From: a virus
Length of the DNA stretch: 47,955 nt
Reading direction: 5' to 3' (one strand)
IMG/VR virus record: IMGVR_UViG_3300045988_175607
Coordinates: 1 to 47,955 of that record
The first letter of the stretch is position 1, and each line of letters begins with the position of its first letter. Positions 1 through 47,955 of the stretch are shown here, piece by piece. The translations under genes and the position numbers were made by a program. A model generated the notes under the pieces. It was not told the origin of the DNA, ran no database searches, and saw nothing but the letters and a program-made list of their open reading frames with translations.

Positions 1-100
1 TTGGACAATCAGCAACCAAGCTCCGAATAGGAGAAGGCTCATCGACTATCGAAATTAATAGTAGAGTAGGGAATCCCCGAAGCGCAAGAAATTCAAGCTT
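1..100 (+). ncRNA. 3' core segment of a group I-type intron (gyrB/nrdD family) that begins upstream of the window; 5' strand of a hairpin (90-100 aattcaagctt) whose 3' strand is at 4843-4853
   Basis: cgactatcgaaa...gtagagtaggg...ccgaagcg.aagaaattcaag at 42-100 is collinear with the 3' cores of the nrdD introns (34991-35075 and 36612-36660). 90-100 is the exact reverse complement of 4843-4853. Confidence 0.55.
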
Positions 101-144
101 AAATAATTATGGACAAAATAAAAATAAAATAAAGGAGGTGTAGT

Positions 145-777
145 ATGGCCGCTGAAAATACTCCAATTCTATATACAGATTTATCGTCACTTATTACTCG
201 TTTACAAAACGTTTATACTACACATGGTTTAAGTTGGGATTGGAATGTATCTGGTAGCGAAGTAGGTGTTTACCCTCTTTCCACAGAAATAACAACACTT
301 TATAATAAATTCGTTGCTGCTCAAACAGAAGAGCATTTGGCAACTTGTGTAAAATGGACTATTGTCAATGGGGAACTAAGTTCTGGCTCCCCTTTGAAAG
401 ATGAAACTTTGAATGCGGCAGCTGCATCTCTCTTATCTATGGAAGCGAAAACGCATTATTCAAGAGTGGTTAATACTGCTGGTGCATTATATACACAGAC
501 CTCTCATTCTAATCAAACCACTTATAGCGAATCTTCTAATACAGCTGGTACTTCTTATTCAAATACCAGTAATGGTCGTAATTGCACTCAAAACTCTTCA
601 AGAAATGCTCAAAGTGGCAATAGTTCTAAATGCGGTTGCCATGTTGTATATAGTAGTGATTGTAGCCAATCCACCAATAGTGCAACAACCACGTATTCGG
701 AAACTTCATATAAAGCCGGCACAACTTATAGTCAAACAACAAATTCAAATGAAACCACTTATACATTTTCAGAATAA
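145..777 (+). CDS. hypothetical protein, C-terminal half made of Ser/Thr/Asn/Tyr-rich T-(T)-Y-S repeats with scattered Cys; candidate repeat precursor or structural protein
   Basis: Strong RBS aaaggagg 8 nt upstream of the ATG; 210-aa open frame; repeats TTYSESSNTAGTSYSNTSNG...TTTYSETSYKAGTTYSQTTNSNETTYTF. Confidence 0.6.
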   Translation: MAAENTPILYTDLSSLITRLQNVYTTHGLSWDWNVSGSEVGVYPLSTEITTLYNKFVAAQTEEHLATCVKWTIVNGELSSGSPLKDETLNAAAASLLSMEAKTHYSRVVNTAGALYTQTSHSNQTTYSESSNTAGTSYSNTSNGRNCTQNSSRNAQSGNSSKCGCHVVYSSDCSQSTNSATTTYSETSYKAGTTYSQTTNSNETTYTFSE

Positions 778-789
778 AAAGGTGAATAA

Positions 790-1236
790 ATGAATATTGA
801 TATAAATCAAGAGCCTATTGAAATTTTATTTAATATTAATAATATATTAAAACAAAATCAACTAGGGGAAGAAGAAAAACAGCAATTATCTGATATTTGT
901 GACATTCTATTGGAAAAAATAATTACTCGTCAAGGAAAATATCAAGTTATTCCTGTTGTAAATGATAATAATTATGATAGTGGCTATTTTGTTTCTTCAT
1001 TAGATTATCTTACAAAGCCATATCAAATACATGAACATAAATACATTGATAATGGCAATTTAAAATTGACTGAAGTATATTATACTGGCGCAAATGGTTT
1101 AAAATATCGAAAAGTTGCTTTTCCTGAAGTTTATAGAGACCCTGGTTTTTTATTGAATAATTCTTTGCTTGCCGAAAGACAAAAAAATATGGCATATCTT
1201 GCAAATAAACGTAATAAGGAGAATAAGAACATATGA
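790..1236 (+). CDS. hypothetical protein
   Basis: ORF of 148 aa; RBS aaaaggtgaa; translationally coupled (ATGA overlap) to the next ORF. Confidence 0.5.
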   Translation: MNIDINQEPIEILFNINNILKQNQLGEEEKQQLSDICDILLEKIITRQGKYQVIPVVNDNNYDSGYFVSSLDYLTKPYQIHEHKYIDNGNLKLTEVYYTGANGLKYRKVAFPEVYRDPGFLLNNSLLAERQKNMAYLANKRNKENKNI

Positions 1237-1550
1237 AAATTGGTATTTCATGTGATACAAATAATCAAACCTATGATATTCCTGATTTTTGGAATATTGA
1301 ATTTGGTGATAAAGAAGCTTTAGCCGAAACCCGTTTTTCATCTATTGGTCAAATTACTAATGCAAATCCTGCTGATCCAACACTTAAAAATATGAGCTTA
1401 AATTTTAAAGATTTAAATTCATTGGTGATTACCATTTATAATGATGATGGTGTTGCAATATATACTCAGATTTGTAATCGTTTAATTTATGCTATTCGTC
1501 GCGTAAATACAGAAAATAATTTTATAGAAAGTTTGTACTTCGTATCGTGA
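1233..1550 (+). CDS. hypothetical protein
   Basis: ORF of 105 aa; RBS aggagaataag; ATGA overlap with flanking ORFs. Confidence 0.5.
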   Translation: MKIGISCDTNNQTYDIPDFWNIEFGDKEALAETRFSSIGQITNANPADPTLKNMSLNFKDLNSLVITIYNDDGVAIYTQICNRLIYAIRRVNTENNFIESLYFVS

Positions 1551-1797
1551 ATGAATCTTTAATTAGTTTTACTTTATTTGGTCAAAAAATTGATATTTTA
1601 GAAAATATGGTAAAACAATGGGATTTAATTAATAGTGACGATGGTGTAGTTTTAACTCTTTTTAATTGTAAATTAACAGAATATCCGCATGAAATTTTTA
1701 ATGTTATTCTTAAAGGTGTGGATTATTCTAATATTCCCGCTTCAATTAATCCAATAGGTAATGATACATAGATTATAATTTTAAGGAAACATTTTTA
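1547..1797 (+). CDS. hypothetical small protein (74 aa to the TAG at 1769, or 82 aa if TAG is read through to the TAA at 1795)
   Basis: Coupled ORF; terminal TAG followed by 8 in-frame codons and then TAA. Confidence 0.4.
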
Positions 1798-1799
1798 AT

Positions 1800-45490: not shown

Positions 45491-45491
45491 A

Positions 45492-45884
45492 TTACTGTTT
45501 ATTTAATTTAACTTCTGCTTCAACTCTATTAGCAATATAAGTTTGTAAATCTCCAAGAGCAACAGATAAATACTCTTTTGCATCATCACTTAATATAGCT
45601 AATACATTGTTACAAGTATCTTCAAAAGCTTTTTTCTGCGCGGCTGCATCAAAAGAGCCGGAAGCCTTTAAAGAATCAACATAAGTCTAATTAGTTGCTA
45701 TTACACAATCTGTAATAGTTTGACTTAAAAGATCAATATATTTATGATATAAAGTATTGTCAACTTGTGTTTTCAGACTTTCTTTTTTCTTATTAATATA
45801 AGTAATTAAGAAAGTTGTCAATACCCCTAATAAAGGTATTATACATACTTGAAATATTTCATTTAATAATTTTAACCAATCCAT
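45492..45884 (-). CDS. small membrane protein (1 TM plus coiled C-terminus; 1 TAG sense codon), possibly holin-like or fibre-associated
   Basis: RBS gtgaggtaa; VCIIPLLGVLTTFLITYI; continues past the TAG at 45687. Confidence 0.45.
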
Positions 45885-45892
45885 GTTTATTA

Positions 45893-46699
45893 TTACCTCA
45901 CTTTGATCCAAACGCGACCATCAACAGAAACATTATTGCTGCCCCAAGTATCATAATTAGGTACAGCACTAATTGAGCCTATTACAGCTTGTGGATGATT
46001 TTGAATTTCTTCTTTAGTCATAATAGACACTGTGCCATTAGGACCTGAACAAACAAAATCACCAATATGCGTTCTATATTCGTCACGATTCTCATAAGTA
46101 TAAGCTAACACTCGGCCAGAAACAGCCAAGGGTGTTTTTGCCTTTTCAGTTTCACCAATTGCAAAGCCATAAGTATCAGAAACAATAGAACAACCATACA
46201 TAAGTCTTGCTTTACTGGGTTCTACTGCATCATTGCCCAATTCATACACAACTCGGCCAGGGTTTATTTGCTTATTACTTATGCGATATTCAGCATAGTC
46301 ATTCCAAACGGCGCCATAAACCTTCGCAGCATATATATTGCCTTGAACGCCTACGCCGCCAGCTACAGTAAGCGCGCCAGTGGTTGTGCTTGAGGCAGCG
46401 GTAGTGTTTGTAATACTGACTTTATTTGCGCCAATACCAATTGAACCATCGCTACCAACAACAAGACCGCCACTTGCAGGAACCATAACTATACCCGCTT
46501 TAGAGGTAGTTGCAATATCAACGGCTGCACTGCCGCCGCCTAAAGAACTACCACCGCCAACGCCACCTTCAACTATAAATATGCGACTTAAATCATCATC
46601 AAAACCCTGTTGTTGGGAGCGCTGCGCATAATCAATTGCATTTAATTTTACTATTGTTAAACTGGTAACAGCACCAGTAGTATTAATTGTATAAGGCAT
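45893..46699 (-). CDS. Gly-rich tail fibre-like protein
   Basis: 268 aa; GGVGGGSSLGGGS, GGVGVQG; RBS aaggagaa. Confidence 0.6.
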   Translation of the reverse strand: MPYTINTTGAVTSLTIVKLNAIDYAQRSQQQGFDDDLSRIFIVEGGVGGGSSLGGGSAAVDIATTSKAGIVMVPASGGLVVGSDGSIGIGANKVSITNTTAASSTTTGALTVAGGVGVQGNIYAAKVYGAVWNDYAEYRISNKQINPGRVVYELGNDAVEPSKARLMYGCSIVSDTYGFAIGETEKAKTPLAVSGRVLAYTYENRDEYRTHIGDFVCSGPNGTVSIMTKEEIQNHPQAVIGSISAVPNYDTWGSNNVSVDGRVWIKVR

Positions 46700-46726
46700 T
46701 AATCTTACATTCTCCTTTCTTAGCGT

Positions 46727-47296
46727 TTAAACATCTACTTTAATAAATACTATAATGTCTGTTCCTATAGTAAACGAACATTCAGTTTCATTAGTACTTA
46801 ATGCTATTGGAGGAGGATTGCTGGCACTGTAACTACCAAAGATTTCACTTGCTGAAGAAACGCCTCCAGTATAAGTAAAAATCCTAAAACCCTTTGCGTC
46901 ATTATATCGAAGTGTTATTTGCCGACCTTGCAAAACAAAACAGTCATTATCTGTTTGTTGATCATCGCTTGGAGCTGAAGAAGCAGTACCAAAACCTGAG
47001 CCACCACACAAGAAATAACTAGACTTGCCATTTGGGTCAGTAAAAGCAGCAGGGGTTAAATCTAAAAACTGACTAACAAGCTAAGTATCTGTCGTGGTGC
47101 TAGGTACCATAATAATGCTTACTCGGCAATAAACTTGGCATTTTTCAACATTAACATTTAAATCAGATACATCATCAGGCACTAAATATAGTTCATTTGC
47201 ATTTAATTCAGAACCTTCACTCAGCTCAGTATATTTAGATTTATTTAATATATTAAGAACTAATTGTGCCTATTGATCAGTATATTCATTTGCCAT
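46727..47296 (-). CDS. hypothetical late structural protein (2 TAG sense codons)
   Basis: RBS aaagggggaa; 189 aa. Confidence 0.5.
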
Positions 47297-47523
47297 AAAA
47301 AGTTTATTCCCCCTTTTCTCTCTGTATTATATAATTTTTATTCATTTGAAATGAATCAAATATGGCCAAAAAGAAAAGGTTTTTTCTTCTTTCTTTCTCT
47401 ATTCTATAAGAAAGTTCTTATAAAAGTATAAATTTCTTTTGCCCATAAAGATTCTGTTAATTTATATAAAAAAATGTTAAGATTCTGTTAAGATAGCGCC
47501 GAGAATCCAAGCTTAAAAATCCT

Positions 47524-47955
47524 AATAGGTAATTAAATTTCTGTAAATACGCCATTAGAACTATATTCTCTTTTAGGTATTGGCAATTTATTTCCTTCAC
47601 CTTTATCAACAACTGTAACATCCAATTGTGGAATAGTTAAATCGTCTATTGGTGCAATAGTTCCATTGCCTATTGCTCCTTTATGAATACGGAAGTTTTG
47701 CATATAGCCTCGGAAGTAAGAACCAGCATTTGTACTATTTTCCGCCTAATGTCCAATAGCCATTGGGTATGTTGAAGAATACCAAAATCCATAGTTATTA
47801 CAAGTATACACATTAGTTTTTGTACCATTAATATATTCATACATAACAGTGCCTATACGTTCATAGCGACGATGTGTCCAGGTATTTATAGTATTCGCTG
47901 TCATAGCTTTCTAAGACCAAATTGTCCAGTTAGAACCATTCGAAACCCCATAACT
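47524..47955 (-). CDS. C-terminal (lectin/LamG-like) domain of a late protein whose start lies beyond the window; 2 TAG sense codons
   Basis: ...NAGSYFRGYMQNFRIHKGAIGNG... Confidence 0.45.

What the first reader, a model, noticed from the sequence alone, without database searches (positions are those of the whole stretch)
1..47955. TAG is a sense codon (best fit Gln) throughout this genome segment
Many clearly homologous genes are only full-length if TAG is translated: endolysin (3 TAG), holin tail, GIY-YIG HE (6), DUF4041-T5orf172 protein (3; RWR-Q-HIKRG matches the GIY-YIG R..H spacing), RecJ (3), dUTPase exon 1, PD-(D/E)XK HE (4; EYDGR-Q-HY reproduces the E.DG.QH motif), RuvC (5), and essentially all minus-strand late genes. 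TAG is absent from the big replication genes (gyrA, gyrB exon 1, ligA, dnaB, dnaG, dnaE). No gene in the window must end on TAG; every apparent TAG terminator is followed by a short in-frame extension to TAA or TGA. No suppressor tRNA gene is visible in the window.
Basis: partly seen in the sequence, partly recalled or inferred. Interest (0 to 1): 0.8.

Follow-up and report, generated by a model that had tools for sequence, protein, structure and literature searches.

The report
Phage reads TAG stop as glutamine
This 48-kb piece of a ~176-kb gut phage genome uses the stop codon TAG as a glutamine codon in its lysis, virion, nuclease and homing-endonuclease genes but not in its large replication genes, and the same genome carries a TAG-reading tRNA; this is a clear example of a phenomenon already described in gut phages.

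Summary
My gene model has 50 in-frame TAG codons in 21 of 55 genes. The large replication genes have none in 5,237 codons, against 176 off-frame TAGs. Every modelled gene ends in TAA or TGA.

Pfam, PHROG and PDB matches run straight through the TAGs. Sequence downstream of the first TAG is still under purifying selection in the same frame (166 synonymous vs 45 non-synonymous differences).

The amino acid is glutamine. At sites where strains or a ~90% relative differ from TAG, 21 of 29 carry CAA or CAG. Three of the five RuvC TAGs sit in Gln columns that are invariant or nearly so, encoded by CAA/CAG or TAG in 80 homologues.

A tRNA with a CUA anticodon lies 15.8 kb upstream of the window. It is on a contig 100% identical to the window, in its own promoter-terminator cassette. 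ARAGORN calls it, but Rfam's tRNA model does not.

This matches published work on code-15 gut phages (Borges et al.; Peters et al.), including late and lysis genes and intron endonucleases being recoded. It is a new member of a known kind and of low novelty.

The parts
5374..6306 (+). Endolysin (PG_binding_1 N-terminal domain plus a C-terminal catalytic part). In-frame TAG codons start at 5758, 5896 and 6112.
   Evidence: Pfam and PHROG matches. 120 full-length homologues. Homologues of 43-55% identity in IMG/VR have no TAG. At one column the ~90% relative has TAG where the window and 9 standard-code homologues all have CAA or CAG.
6309..6635 (+). Putative holin: two hydrophobic segments and a charged tail. 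One TAG at 6582, in the tail.
   Evidence: Read from the sequence. That TAG is CAG in strain L002 and in relative L090. No PHROG or Pfam hit, so 'holin' is inferred from position and hydrophobicity.
8850..9725 (+). GIY-YIG homing endonuclease lying between gyrB exon 1 and the gyrB C-terminal exon. Six TAG codons: 8874, 8907, 8937, 9219, 9378, 9528.
   Evidence: Pfam GIY-YIG aa 4-89 spans 3 TAGs. The I-TevI alignment runs through them. A 70%-identical allele in L090 has CAA at 4 of the 6 sites.
15020..15988 (+). Coiled-coil protein with a C-terminal GIY-YIG/T5orf172-like domain. TAG at 15104, 15158 and 15797.
   Evidence: Pfam GIY-YIG aa 233-314 spans the TAG in RWR-TAG-HIKRG.
24163..25926 (+). 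RecJ-like DHH exonuclease. TAG at 24220, 24268 and 25510.
   Evidence: Pfam DHH at aa 75-217 and RecJ_OB at aa 491-574 lie on either side of the third TAG, in one frame.
37159..37680 (+). NrdG-like radical-SAM activase. One TAG at 37630, near the C-terminus.
   Evidence: Pfam Fer4_12 aa 13-154. The site is TTA in the ~90% relative, so this one site says nothing about Gln.
38722..39069 (+). dUTPase exon 1. One TAG at 38761.
   Evidence: Pfam dUTPase N-terminal match. The C-terminal dUTPase motifs are read in another frame just before 40723.
39168..40283 (+). Homing endonuclease inside the split dUTPase gene. TAG at 39201, 39921, 40083, 40110 and 40176.
   Evidence: PHROG homing/HNH/intron-encoded nuclease families match aa 171-356, across 4 TAGs.
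40721..41218 (+). RuvC-like Holliday junction resolvase. TAG at 40745, 40784, 40922, 41105 and 41117.
   Evidence: Pfam and PHROG matches are full length. Three of the TAGs fall on Gln columns that are invariant or nearly so.
41600..41800 (+). Small ORF of unknown function, the last plus-strand gene. TAG at 41675, 41765 and 41771.
   Evidence: Two of the TAGs are CAA or CAG in L100 and L006.
41818..47955 (-). Minus-strand virion-module genes, presumed late, including an HNH endonuclease at 43882-44367. Eleven genes; 10 carry TAG (18 TAG in 1,678 codons, against 15 CAG).
   Evidence: PHROG profiles 20016 and 16490 match full length across TAGs. TAG exchanges with CAA/CAG in relatives. The module continues beyond the window with a Laminin_G_3 protein and a 2,503-aa protein.
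6925..34600 (+). TAG-free replication block: gyrB 6925-8667, gyrA 10025-12367, ligA 12440-14359, dnaB 21344-22873, dnaG 23076-24182, SF1 helicase 26350-27486, dnaE with an intein 27553-32760, and the nrdD N-terminal part 33422-34600. The TAG-containing genes listed above are interspersed in this span.
   Evidence: Pfam matches. 0 in-frame against 176 off-frame TAG in 5,237 codons.

Best explanation
The window belongs to a ~176-kb tailed phage from human-associated metagenomes that uses genetic code 15, in which TAG means glutamine.

Shown:
- TAG lies in frame inside conserved, selected genes.
- It exchanges freely with CAA and CAG.
- It is never needed as a terminator.
- It is concentrated in lysis, virion, recombination-nuclease and homing-endonuclease genes.
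- The large replication genes avoid it entirely.
- The same genome encodes one tRNA with a CUA anticodon, in a self-contained cassette 15.8 kb upstream of the window. The cassette has a perfect TTGACA-17-TATAAT promoter, a leader hairpin, the tRNA and a strong intrinsic terminator.

Inferred:
- A host enzyme charges this tRNA with glutamine: either GlnRS, or GluRS followed by the amidotransferase GatCAB.
- The charged tRNA outcompetes release factor 1 at TAG.
- The host itself uses the standard code, so TAG-free genes can be made at once, while TAG-containing genes yield full-length protein only after the suppressor has accumulated.
- That would delay lysis, virion assembly and DNA-cutting enzymes. 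This is the timing model of Borges et al.
For: In-frame TAG and ORF coverage.

Homology through TAG.

Selection downstream of TAG: 166 synonymous against 45 non-synonymous differences. TAG is conserved at 68 site-comparisons with other strains and at 22 sites in the ~90% relative.

Gln identity: 21 of 29 variable sites are CAA/CAG. RuvC Gln columns that are invariant or nearly so. An endolysin column that is Gln in all other homologues. In a 2,503-aa late ORF the counts are TAG 29, CAG 4, CAA 45, so TAG largely replaces CAG.

tRNA(CUA): ARAGORN calls it at L089:4393-4467 on contig k119_226633, which is 100% identical to the window over 22.8 kb. It is also present in strain L185 and relative L009. 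It folds as a cloverleaf with a CUCUAAA anticodon loop. The cassette is 97% conserved, and the conservation starts exactly at the -35 hexamer where the upstream flank differs.

Efficiency: 29 TAGs in one ORF require near-complete suppression, because 0.9^29 is about 5%.

Literature: the same pattern is reported in doi 10.1101/2021.08.26.457843. Code 15 was confirmed by metaproteomics in crAss-like phages (PMC9523058, abstract).
Against: Rfam's tRNA covariance model does not report the CUA tRNA, even at E <= 10. The tRNA has a U1.C72 mismatch, a 3-bp D stem and a 6-nt variable loop, so its function is not proven.

Its body resembles a phage tRNA-Trp more than the phage tRNA-Gln, so charging with Gln rests on codon comparisons only.

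Eight of 29 variable sites are not Gln codons (GAG 3, AAT 2, and AAA, TTA and CGA 1 each).

Only about 86 of 176 kb of the genome was read, and no release-factor or synthetase gene was seen there.

The host and its code are unknown. There are no expression or peptide data. The consensus sigma-70 promoter suggests the tRNA could be made early, which fits a late switch only if accumulation is slow or the leader hairpin attenuates transcription.
Confidence: 0.9

Rival explanations
1. The TAG-interrupted genes are pseudogenes, decaying homing endonucleases, or the product of assembly or sequencing errors, and TAG is an ordinary stop.
For: Homing endonucleases often decay. Gene calls on short contigs of this phage under code 11 give truncated products, for example a 128-aa endolysin fragment in L003.
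Against: The same TAGs recur in independent assemblies from different samples: 68 conserved site-comparisons. Only TAG interrupts these genes, never TAA or TGA. Sequence after the first TAG shows a 3rd-position bias of 39/19/168 and 166 synonymous against 45 non-synonymous differences. Essential genes are affected too: endolysin, virion proteins and a 2,503-aa ORF with 29 TAGs.
Confidence: 0.01
2. TAG is translated, but as another amino acid: pyrrolysine, Trp, Tyr, Lys, Glu or Leu.
For: ARAGORN labels any CUA tRNA 'tRNA-Pyl'. The tRNA body resembles a phage tRNA-Trp. Some variable sites show GAG, AAA, AAT or TTA. At non-conserved endolysin sites distant homologues have E, K, H or L.
Against: 21 of 29 exchanges are with CAA/CAG and none is with TGG, TAT/TAC or AAG. 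TAG occupies Gln columns in RuvC that are invariant or nearly so, and those columns hold CAA/CAG or TAG in nearly all of 80 homologues. The tRNA has an ordinary 5-bp anticodon stem, not the 6-bp stem and 3-nt variable loop that I recall for tRNA-Pyl (own knowledge). From memory of the E. coli su+7 literature, a Trp-type tRNA mutated to CUA is charged largely with Gln.
Confidence: 0.03
3. The host bacterium itself reads TAG as Gln, and the phage simply matches its host. There is no code switch during infection.
For: The host is unknown. Borges et al. describe code-25 phages that match code-25 hosts. TAG is never used as a stop anywhere in the 102 genes examined.
Against: Only 35% of genes contain TAG, and the large replication genes avoid it completely. 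Borges et al. report about 90% of genes recoded when the host shares the code, against 26-71% for phages of standard-code hosts. The phage carries its own CUA tRNA. As far as I know, no bacterium with TAG=Gln has been described (own knowledge). Relatives are binned with standard-code Clostridium sp. MAGs, which is only a weak hint.
Confidence: 0.04
4. TAG remains mainly a stop and is read through only at low efficiency. It acts as an attenuator that lowers the yield of toxic proteins, not as a fully reassigned codon.
For: Many TAG-containing genes encode nucleases, homing endonucleases or lysis proteins, for which low dosage could be advantageous. RF1 is presumably still present. No RF1 antagonist and no RF2 gene was found in the 86 kb examined.
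Against: Abundant virion proteins also carry TAGs. A 2,503-aa ORF with 29 TAGs could not be made at useful yield unless read-through per site is well above 90%. TAG and CAA/CAG interchange as if synonymous.
Confidence: 0.08

Closest known systems
TAG-recoded (code 15) large gut phages of Borges et al., the Agate, Sapphire and Jade clades (bioRxiv 10.1101/2021.08.26.457843; published in Nat Microbiol 2022 according to my memory)
   Same: Genome size is in the same range: 176 kb here, against clade means of about 150-210 kb. Also shared: low GC; TAG aligning with Gln; recoding concentrated in structural and lysis genes; variable use in replication genes; phage-encoded TAG suppressor tRNA; an intron homing endonuclease in an early gene carrying recoded stops; 26-71% of genes recoded, against 35-38% here.
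   Different: Membership of a named clade was not tested, because no terminase tree or sequence comparison with their genomes was possible. No RF2 gene was seen in the 86 kb read here, whereas two Agate phages have one.
crAss-like phages and Lak megaphages using TAG=Gln, with metaproteomic validation in Peters et al. 2022 (PMC9523058)
   Same: The same reassignment, the same late-gene bias and the same reliance on suppressor tRNAs. Peptide evidence shows that code 15 is real in phages.
   Different: These are unrelated lineages predicted to infect Bacteroidetes. This phage has a dnaE/gyrase/ligA replication module, and its relatives are binned with Clostridium sp..
phAss-1 / proposed Phassvirus (Babkin et al. 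2023, PMC10607447)
   Same: A human-gut phage of 136 kb with TAG inside 41 ORFs and suppressor tRNA genes.
   Different: It has three suppressor tRNAs, against the one found here so far. No sequence similarity was tested. Megablast of two window segments (dnaE 27553-32760 and the virion module 41800-47955) against 50,697 GenBank phage records found nothing.
Classical E. coli amber suppressors inserting Gln: supE, and su+7 derived from tRNA-Trp (own knowledge)
   Same: A tRNA with a CUA anticodon that competes with RF1 and inserts Gln. The phage tRNA shares U1, G73 and a Trp-like D arm and T arm.
   Different: Those are weak mutant alleles of cellular tRNAs. Here a dedicated phage gene supports dozens of essential in-frame TAGs.

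Membership tests
Genetic code 15 (TAG = Gln) phage genome | In-frame TAG inside conserved genes, with homology continuing in the same frame on both sides | tested here: met
   Pfam, PHROG and PDB matches span TAGs. Endolysin and RuvC homologues align full length.
Genetic code 15 (TAG = Gln) phage genome | TAG positions align with glutamine rather than any other residue | tested here: met
   21 of 29 variable sites are CAA/CAG, p = 2e-24. Three RuvC TAGs fall on Gln columns that are invariant or nearly so. One endolysin column is Gln in all other homologues.
Genetic code 15 (TAG = Gln) phage genome | TAG is not used as a terminator; genes end in TAA or TGA | tested here: met
   Window genes end 46 TAA and 9 TGA. 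The 47 flanking genes end 36 TAA and 11 TGA. TAGs near C-termini exchange with CAG/CAA. Caveat: ORFs were defined with TAG open, so the direct support is that the 34 TAG-free genes have no in-frame TAG at all.
Genetic code 15 (TAG = Gln) phage genome | A suppressor tRNA with a CUA anticodon is encoded by the phage | tested here: met
   ARAGORN calls one at L089:4393-4467 in the same genome, and in L185 and L009. It folds as a cloverleaf. Caveat: Rfam's tRNA model does not detect it.
Genetic code 15 (TAG = Gln) phage genome | Peptides with Gln at TAG positions | not testable with these tools
   No proteomic data are available.
Phage code switch in a standard-code host (the Borges et al. model) | Early or replication genes are free of the recoded stop, and late, lysis and structural genes are enriched in it | tested here: met
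   TAG is 0 of 174 TAG+CAG+CAA codons in the replication genes, against 18 of 91 in the minus-strand virion genes. The endolysin and the putative holin are recoded. Exceptions: RecJ, RuvC, NrdG, dUTPase and a PIN-PhoH protein also carry TAG.
Phage code switch in a standard-code host (the Borges et al. model) | The host uses the standard code | not tested
   The host was not identified. The only hint is that relatives are binned as Clostridium sp. MAGs.
Phage code switch in a standard-code host (the Borges et al. model) | Accessory machinery such as RF2 or an aminoacyl-tRNA synthetase | tested here: inconclusive
   None appears among the Pfam annotations of the 86 kb read. About 90 kb of the genome was not examined. 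This feature is optional in the published clades.
Pyrrolysine decoding of TAG | A tRNA-Pyl architecture, pylSBCD genes, and TAG aligning with Lys or Pyl positions | tested here: not met
   The tRNA has an ordinary anticodon stem and variable loop. No pyl-related Pfam hits were seen. TAG aligns with Gln, with Lys at only 1 of 29 variable sites.

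The most novel reading that the evidence does not exclude
The code switch may depend on an atypical, separately regulated suppressor tRNA. The tRNA has a Trp-like body with a U1.C72 mismatch, and the standard Rfam tRNA model misses it. It sits in a mobile-looking cassette made of a consensus promoter, a leader hairpin and a terminator. It lies inside an RNA-repair-like gene cluster: a DUF2828-family protein, an RNA ligase, a kinase, phosphoesterases and a vault-MVP-like protein. 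Its abundance or integrity, for example protection or repair after attack by host anticodon nucleases, could be the actual timer for lysis, virion production and homing-endonuclease expression.
Probability: 0.1. Interest if true: 0.5.

Novelty: new member of a known kind. Interest (0 to 1): 0.25.

Why it matters
There are two practical consequences.

First, annotation. This phage and many of its 100-200-kb relatives must be annotated with translation table 15. Under table 11 the endolysin, the virion proteins, RuvC, RecJ and several homing endonucleases are split into fragments. Short contigs of this same phage in public collections are already mis-called in this way.

Second, biology. The genome is another clean case, with strain-level codon evidence, for the idea that phages gate lysis, assembly and DNA-cutting enzymes by stop-codon recoding. 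It also provides a compact suppressor-tRNA cassette that could be tested directly.

It does not change what is known about the genetic code in phages.

Tried and rejected
- Megablast of the dnaE gene and of the virion region against 50,697 GenBank phage records found no match.
- tblastn with gyrA found only hits of at most 37% identity, so there is no annotated close relative to read.
- Rfam at gathering thresholds found nothing in the window, so the intervening sequences in gyrB, dUTPase and nrdD are not confirmed as group I introns.
- Rfam did not detect the CUA tRNA, even with permissive settings.
- A single-sequence search of IMG/VR with RuvC found only one relative. A profile search was needed to obtain 80.
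- My first look-up of a minus-strand protein failed because I trimmed the wrong end (corrected).
- Distant endolysin homologues were not informative about the amino acid at the three window TAG sites, which are variable surface-type positions holding E, K, H, A, L or Q.
- ORF-coverage differences in the early-region loci of more distant relatives were too noisy to tell which relatives are recoded.
- TGA recoding was considered and rejected, because reading TGA as sense adds only 0-5 points of ORF coverage.
- A Y-RNA or tRNA-like decoy reading of the CUA element, suggested by the neighbouring DUF2828 gene, was considered. I judged it unlikely, because the element has a complete anticodon arm with U33 and A37 and because the genome needs a TAG decoder.

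Full report
**What the window is**

The window has 32% GC and contains no tRNA. Its plus strand, positions 1-41800, carries a replication and nucleotide-metabolism block:
- gyrB, gyrA, NAD-dependent ligase, DnaB, primase and an SF1 helicase;
- DnaE with an intein;
- NrdD and NrdG, dUTPase, RecJ and RuvC;
- an endolysin and a putative holin;
- several homing endonucleases.

The minus strand from 41818 to the end carries virion-module genes. Exact-protein look-ups place the window on contigs of about 176 kb assembled independently from several metagenomes: 176,020, 176,222 and 175,955 bp. Contig k119_226633 is 100% identical to the window over the 22.8 kb that could be compared. Through it I could read the same genome from 29.8 kb upstream of the window to 8.7 kb downstream. 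GenBank phages hold no close relative. IMG/VR holds one relative at about 90% nucleotide identity (UViG_3300045988_177309, 162 kb) and many distant ones of 100-200 kb.

**Check of the observation**

With TAG read as sense, stop-to-stop ORFs tile the window, and I modelled 55 genes. They contain 50 in-frame TAG codons in 21 genes.

The eight large replication genes have 0 in-frame TAG in 5,237 codons, while the other two frames of the same genes hold 176. The minus-strand genes have 18 TAG in 1,678 codons, about as many as CAG (15). Counting TAG among TAG+CAG+CAA gives 0 of 174 against 18 of 91, p = 1e-9.

All 55 genes end in TAA (46) or TGA (9). The 34 TAG-free genes have no in-frame TAG at all, so none of them can end on TAG.

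Coverage by ORFs of at least 120 aa rises from 71% to 86% for the window when TAG is opened. In the virion-gene loci of this phage and its strains it rises from 41-50% to 82-87%. Opening TGA adds 0-5 points.

In a strain 96.5% identical to this genome, one late ORF of 2,503 codons has 29 TAG and no TAA or TGA. Its last 338 codons, present in this genome, hold 5 TAG.

**Is TAG really translated?**

Homology runs through the TAGs in the same frame:
- Pfam GIY-YIG covers aa 4-89 of the endonuclease at 8850 (three TAGs) and aa 233-314 of the protein at 15020. Pfam RuvC covers aa 5-112 (three TAGs). In RecJ, the DHH and RecJ_OB domains lie on either side of a TAG.
- The I-TevI catalytic domain aligns across three TAGs.
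- PHROG profiles cover RuvC at aa 4-155 of 165, and two virion-module proteins end to end.
- 120 endolysin homologues align over 90-100% of the query length (all but one over at least 97%). The IMG/VR ones at 43-55% identity have no TAG, so they are ordinary single ORFs under the standard code.

Independent assemblies keep the TAGs: 68 conserved site-comparisons with strains and 22 conserved sites in the ~90% relative. Between strains, nucleotide differences downstream of the first TAG of a gene fall at codon positions 1/2/3 as 39/19/168, with 166 synonymous against 45 non-synonymous codon changes. Upstream of the first TAG the pattern is the same, 11/12/54. Pseudogenes or assembly errors cannot produce this.

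**Which amino acid?**

Where a strain differs from the window at a TAG, the other codon is CAG (4), CAA (2) or CGA (1). Against the ~90% relative it is CAA (14), CAG (1), GAG (3), AAT (2), AAA (1) or TTA (1). Together 21 of 29 are glutamine codons, against a background Gln frequency of 3.6% (p = 2e-24). TAG to CAA needs two substitutions, so this excess is what synonymous drift among three Gln codons would give.

In RuvC, the TAGs at aa 9 (LALD-TAG-A), 68 (IQL-TAG-E) and 129 (KNT-TAG-L) align with Gln in 116/116, 111/116 and 116/116 homologues of at most 65% identity. In 80 IMG/VR homologues read at the DNA level, those three columns hold:
- CAA/CAG in 47 and TAG in 33;
- CAA/CAG in 62 and TAG in 9;
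- CAA/CAG in 58 and TAG in 15.

The few remaining sequences in the second and third columns have another codon or a gap. 33 of the 80 homologues have no TAG at all, so the Gln calls are not an artefact of code-15 translation.

In the endolysin, the relative has TAG at a column where the window and nine standard-code homologues all have CAA or CAG. In TAG-rich genes CAG is nearly absent, for example TAG 29, CAG 4, CAA 45 in the 2,503-aa ORF. TAG therefore behaves as a replacement for CAG. No exchange with TGG, TAT/TAC or AAG was seen.

**The decoder**

The window has no tRNA. The same contig carries a tRNA cluster about 19-20 kb upstream of the window start (Ile-GAU, Gln-UUG, Thr-UGU, Leu-UAA, Pro-UGG), with a further tRNA-Ser(UGA) about 29 kb upstream. 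A separate tRNA with anticodon CUA lies at L089:4393-4467, which is 15,793-15,867 nt upstream of window position 1. Strain L185 and the ~90% relative also have it.

ARAGORN and the minimum-free-energy fold both give a cloverleaf. The anticodon stem has 5 bp and the loop is CUCUAAA. The T loop is UUCAAGU and the discriminator is G73. There is a U1.C72 mismatch, a 3-bp D stem and a 6-nt variable loop.

The gene sits in a compact cassette:
- a perfect TTGACA-17 nt-TATAAT promoter;
- a short leader hairpin;
- the tRNA;
- a ~50-nt trailer;
- a 12-bp terminator followed by a T run.

The cassette is 97% identical in the ~90% relative. In L185, where two extra genes lie upstream, the similarity begins exactly at the -35 hexamer.

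There are two caveats. Rfam's tRNA model does not report this tRNA even at E <= 10, although it finds the five tRNAs of the neighbouring cluster. And its D and T arms look more like a phage tRNA-Trp than the phage tRNA-Gln. From memory of the classical literature, a Trp-type tRNA with a CUA anticodon (E. coli su+7) is charged mainly with Gln, and a weak 1-72 pair favours Gln identity. That agrees with the codon data but was not tested here.

**How it most likely works**

Shown: the codon pattern, the Gln identity, and the presence of a candidate suppressor tRNA in its own transcription unit.

Inferred:
- The host uses the standard code.
- TAG-free genes are translated immediately.
- TAG-containing genes give full-length products only when the Gln-charged suppressor outcompetes RF1.
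- Lysis proteins, virion proteins, recombination nucleases (RecJ, RuvC) and homing endonucleases are therefore delayed.

Suppression must become efficient, because a protein with 29 TAGs could not otherwise be made. Across the 102 genes read in 86 kb, 36 (35%) contain TAG. That lies within the 26-71% reported for recoded phages of standard-code hosts and far from the ~90% reported for phages that share a recoded host's code. No release-factor or synthetase gene was seen in the part of the genome I could read.

**Comparison with what is known**

Borges et al. (doi 10.1101/2021.08.26.457843) describe TAG=Gln and TGA=Trp recoding in many gut phage clades, including large Firmicutes-associated clades of about 150-210 kb (Agate, Sapphire, Jade). 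They report preferential recoding of structural and lysis genes, variable recoding of replication genes, phage suppressor tRNAs and occasional RF2 genes. They also report an intron homing endonuclease in an early gene whose in-frame stops should delay its production. Peters et al. (PMC9523058) confirmed code 15 by metaproteomics in crAss-like phages. Babkin et al. (PMC10607447) describe another TAG-recoded gut phage group with suppressor tRNAs.

Every element of the present finding has a counterpart there. The gene calls stored for the long contigs of this phage already give the full-length products (310-aa endolysin, 291-aa GIY-YIG endonuclease), which is consistent with TAG having been read as sense there, while short contigs were called under code 11 and are fragmented. 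I could not test whether this phage belongs to one of the named clades.

**Verdict**

This is a new, well-documented member of a known kind of system. Interest is low to moderate.

The only unusual points are the atypical suppressor tRNA, which a standard covariance model misses, and its position as a self-contained cassette inside an RNA-repair-like gene cluster.

Noticed in passing
window 6925-10035; 38722-40723; 33422-37162; 27553-32760; 18582-20578: Many genes are interrupted by mobile elements. gyrB is split around a GIY-YIG endonuclease, with the C-terminal GyrB exon readable at about 9800-10035. dUTPase is split around the endonuclease at 39168-40283, with the C-terminal motifs just before 40723. 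The NrdD N-terminal part (33422-34600) and its glycyl-radical C-terminus (36920-37162) are separated by other ORFs. DnaE carries an intein (Pfam Intein_splicing, aa 583-905). A LAGLIDADG gene (19028-19837) precedes the C-terminal half of an AAA_24 ATPase. Rfam finds no group I intron at gathering score.
   Followed up: partly
window 43838-44422: The HNH/NUMOD homing endonuclease gene (43882-44367, one TAG) is a presence/absence polymorphism. This 585-bp segment is missing from strains L006 and L007, which are otherwise 98-99% identical on its upstream side (L006 drops to 92% downstream). Strain L008 has a different HNH gene at the same place.
   Followed up: partly
L089:2839-4326, 10001-11398, 12680-15121, 15685-16760 (same genome, 3.5-17.4 kb upstream of the window): The genes around the tRNA(CUA) cassette form an RNA-repair-like cluster: a DUF2828/DUF7788 protein immediately before the cassette, an RNA ligase, an AAA_33 kinase, two metallophosphoesterases, an RNase T-like exonuclease, and an 813-aa protein matching the vault MVP shoulder domain.
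   Followed up: no
L089:4393-4467 (15.8 kb upstream of window position 1): ARAGORN calls the CUA-anticodon tRNA, but Rfam's tRNA covariance model does not report it even at E <= 10. It has a U1.C72 mismatch, a 3-bp D stem and a 6-nt variable loop. A 10-bp AT-rich hairpin followed by TTTT lies between its consensus promoter and the tRNA 5' end.
   Followed up: partly
window 4874-5314 and L089:19309-20151: There are two PhoH-related pieces. A PIN_4+PhoH protein of 280 aa with 5 TAGs ends about 110 nt before the window. A 146-aa protein matching only the C-terminal half of PhoH (profile positions 93-194) lies 5 kb downstream, with seven genes in between, including a radical-SAM protein. This may be a split or duplicated gene.
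   Followed up: no
window 8850-9725 vs L090:7499-8329: The GIY-YIG endonuclease in gyrB is only 70% identical in nucleotides to its counterpart in the relative, where the surrounding genome is about 89% identical. The relative's allele has no TAG at any of the six sites (CAA at 4, AAA at 1, AAT at 1). Endonuclease alleles therefore turn over faster than the genome and differ in recoding.
   Followed up: partly
L003 (11.8-kb contig of the same phage) vs L001 and L004: In the public gene calls, long contigs of this phage carry full-length products consistent with TAG read as sense (310-aa endolysin). A short contig was called under the standard code and shows a 128-aa endolysin fragment plus small spurious ORFs.
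   Followed up: no
L102:4708-5389 (IMGVR_UViG_3300033555_000097): An unrelated IMG/VR contig, found through the anticodon-arm pattern, carries two CUA-anticodon tRNAs next to tRNA-Gln(CUG) and tRNA-Trp(CCA) in one tRNA cluster.
   Followed up: no
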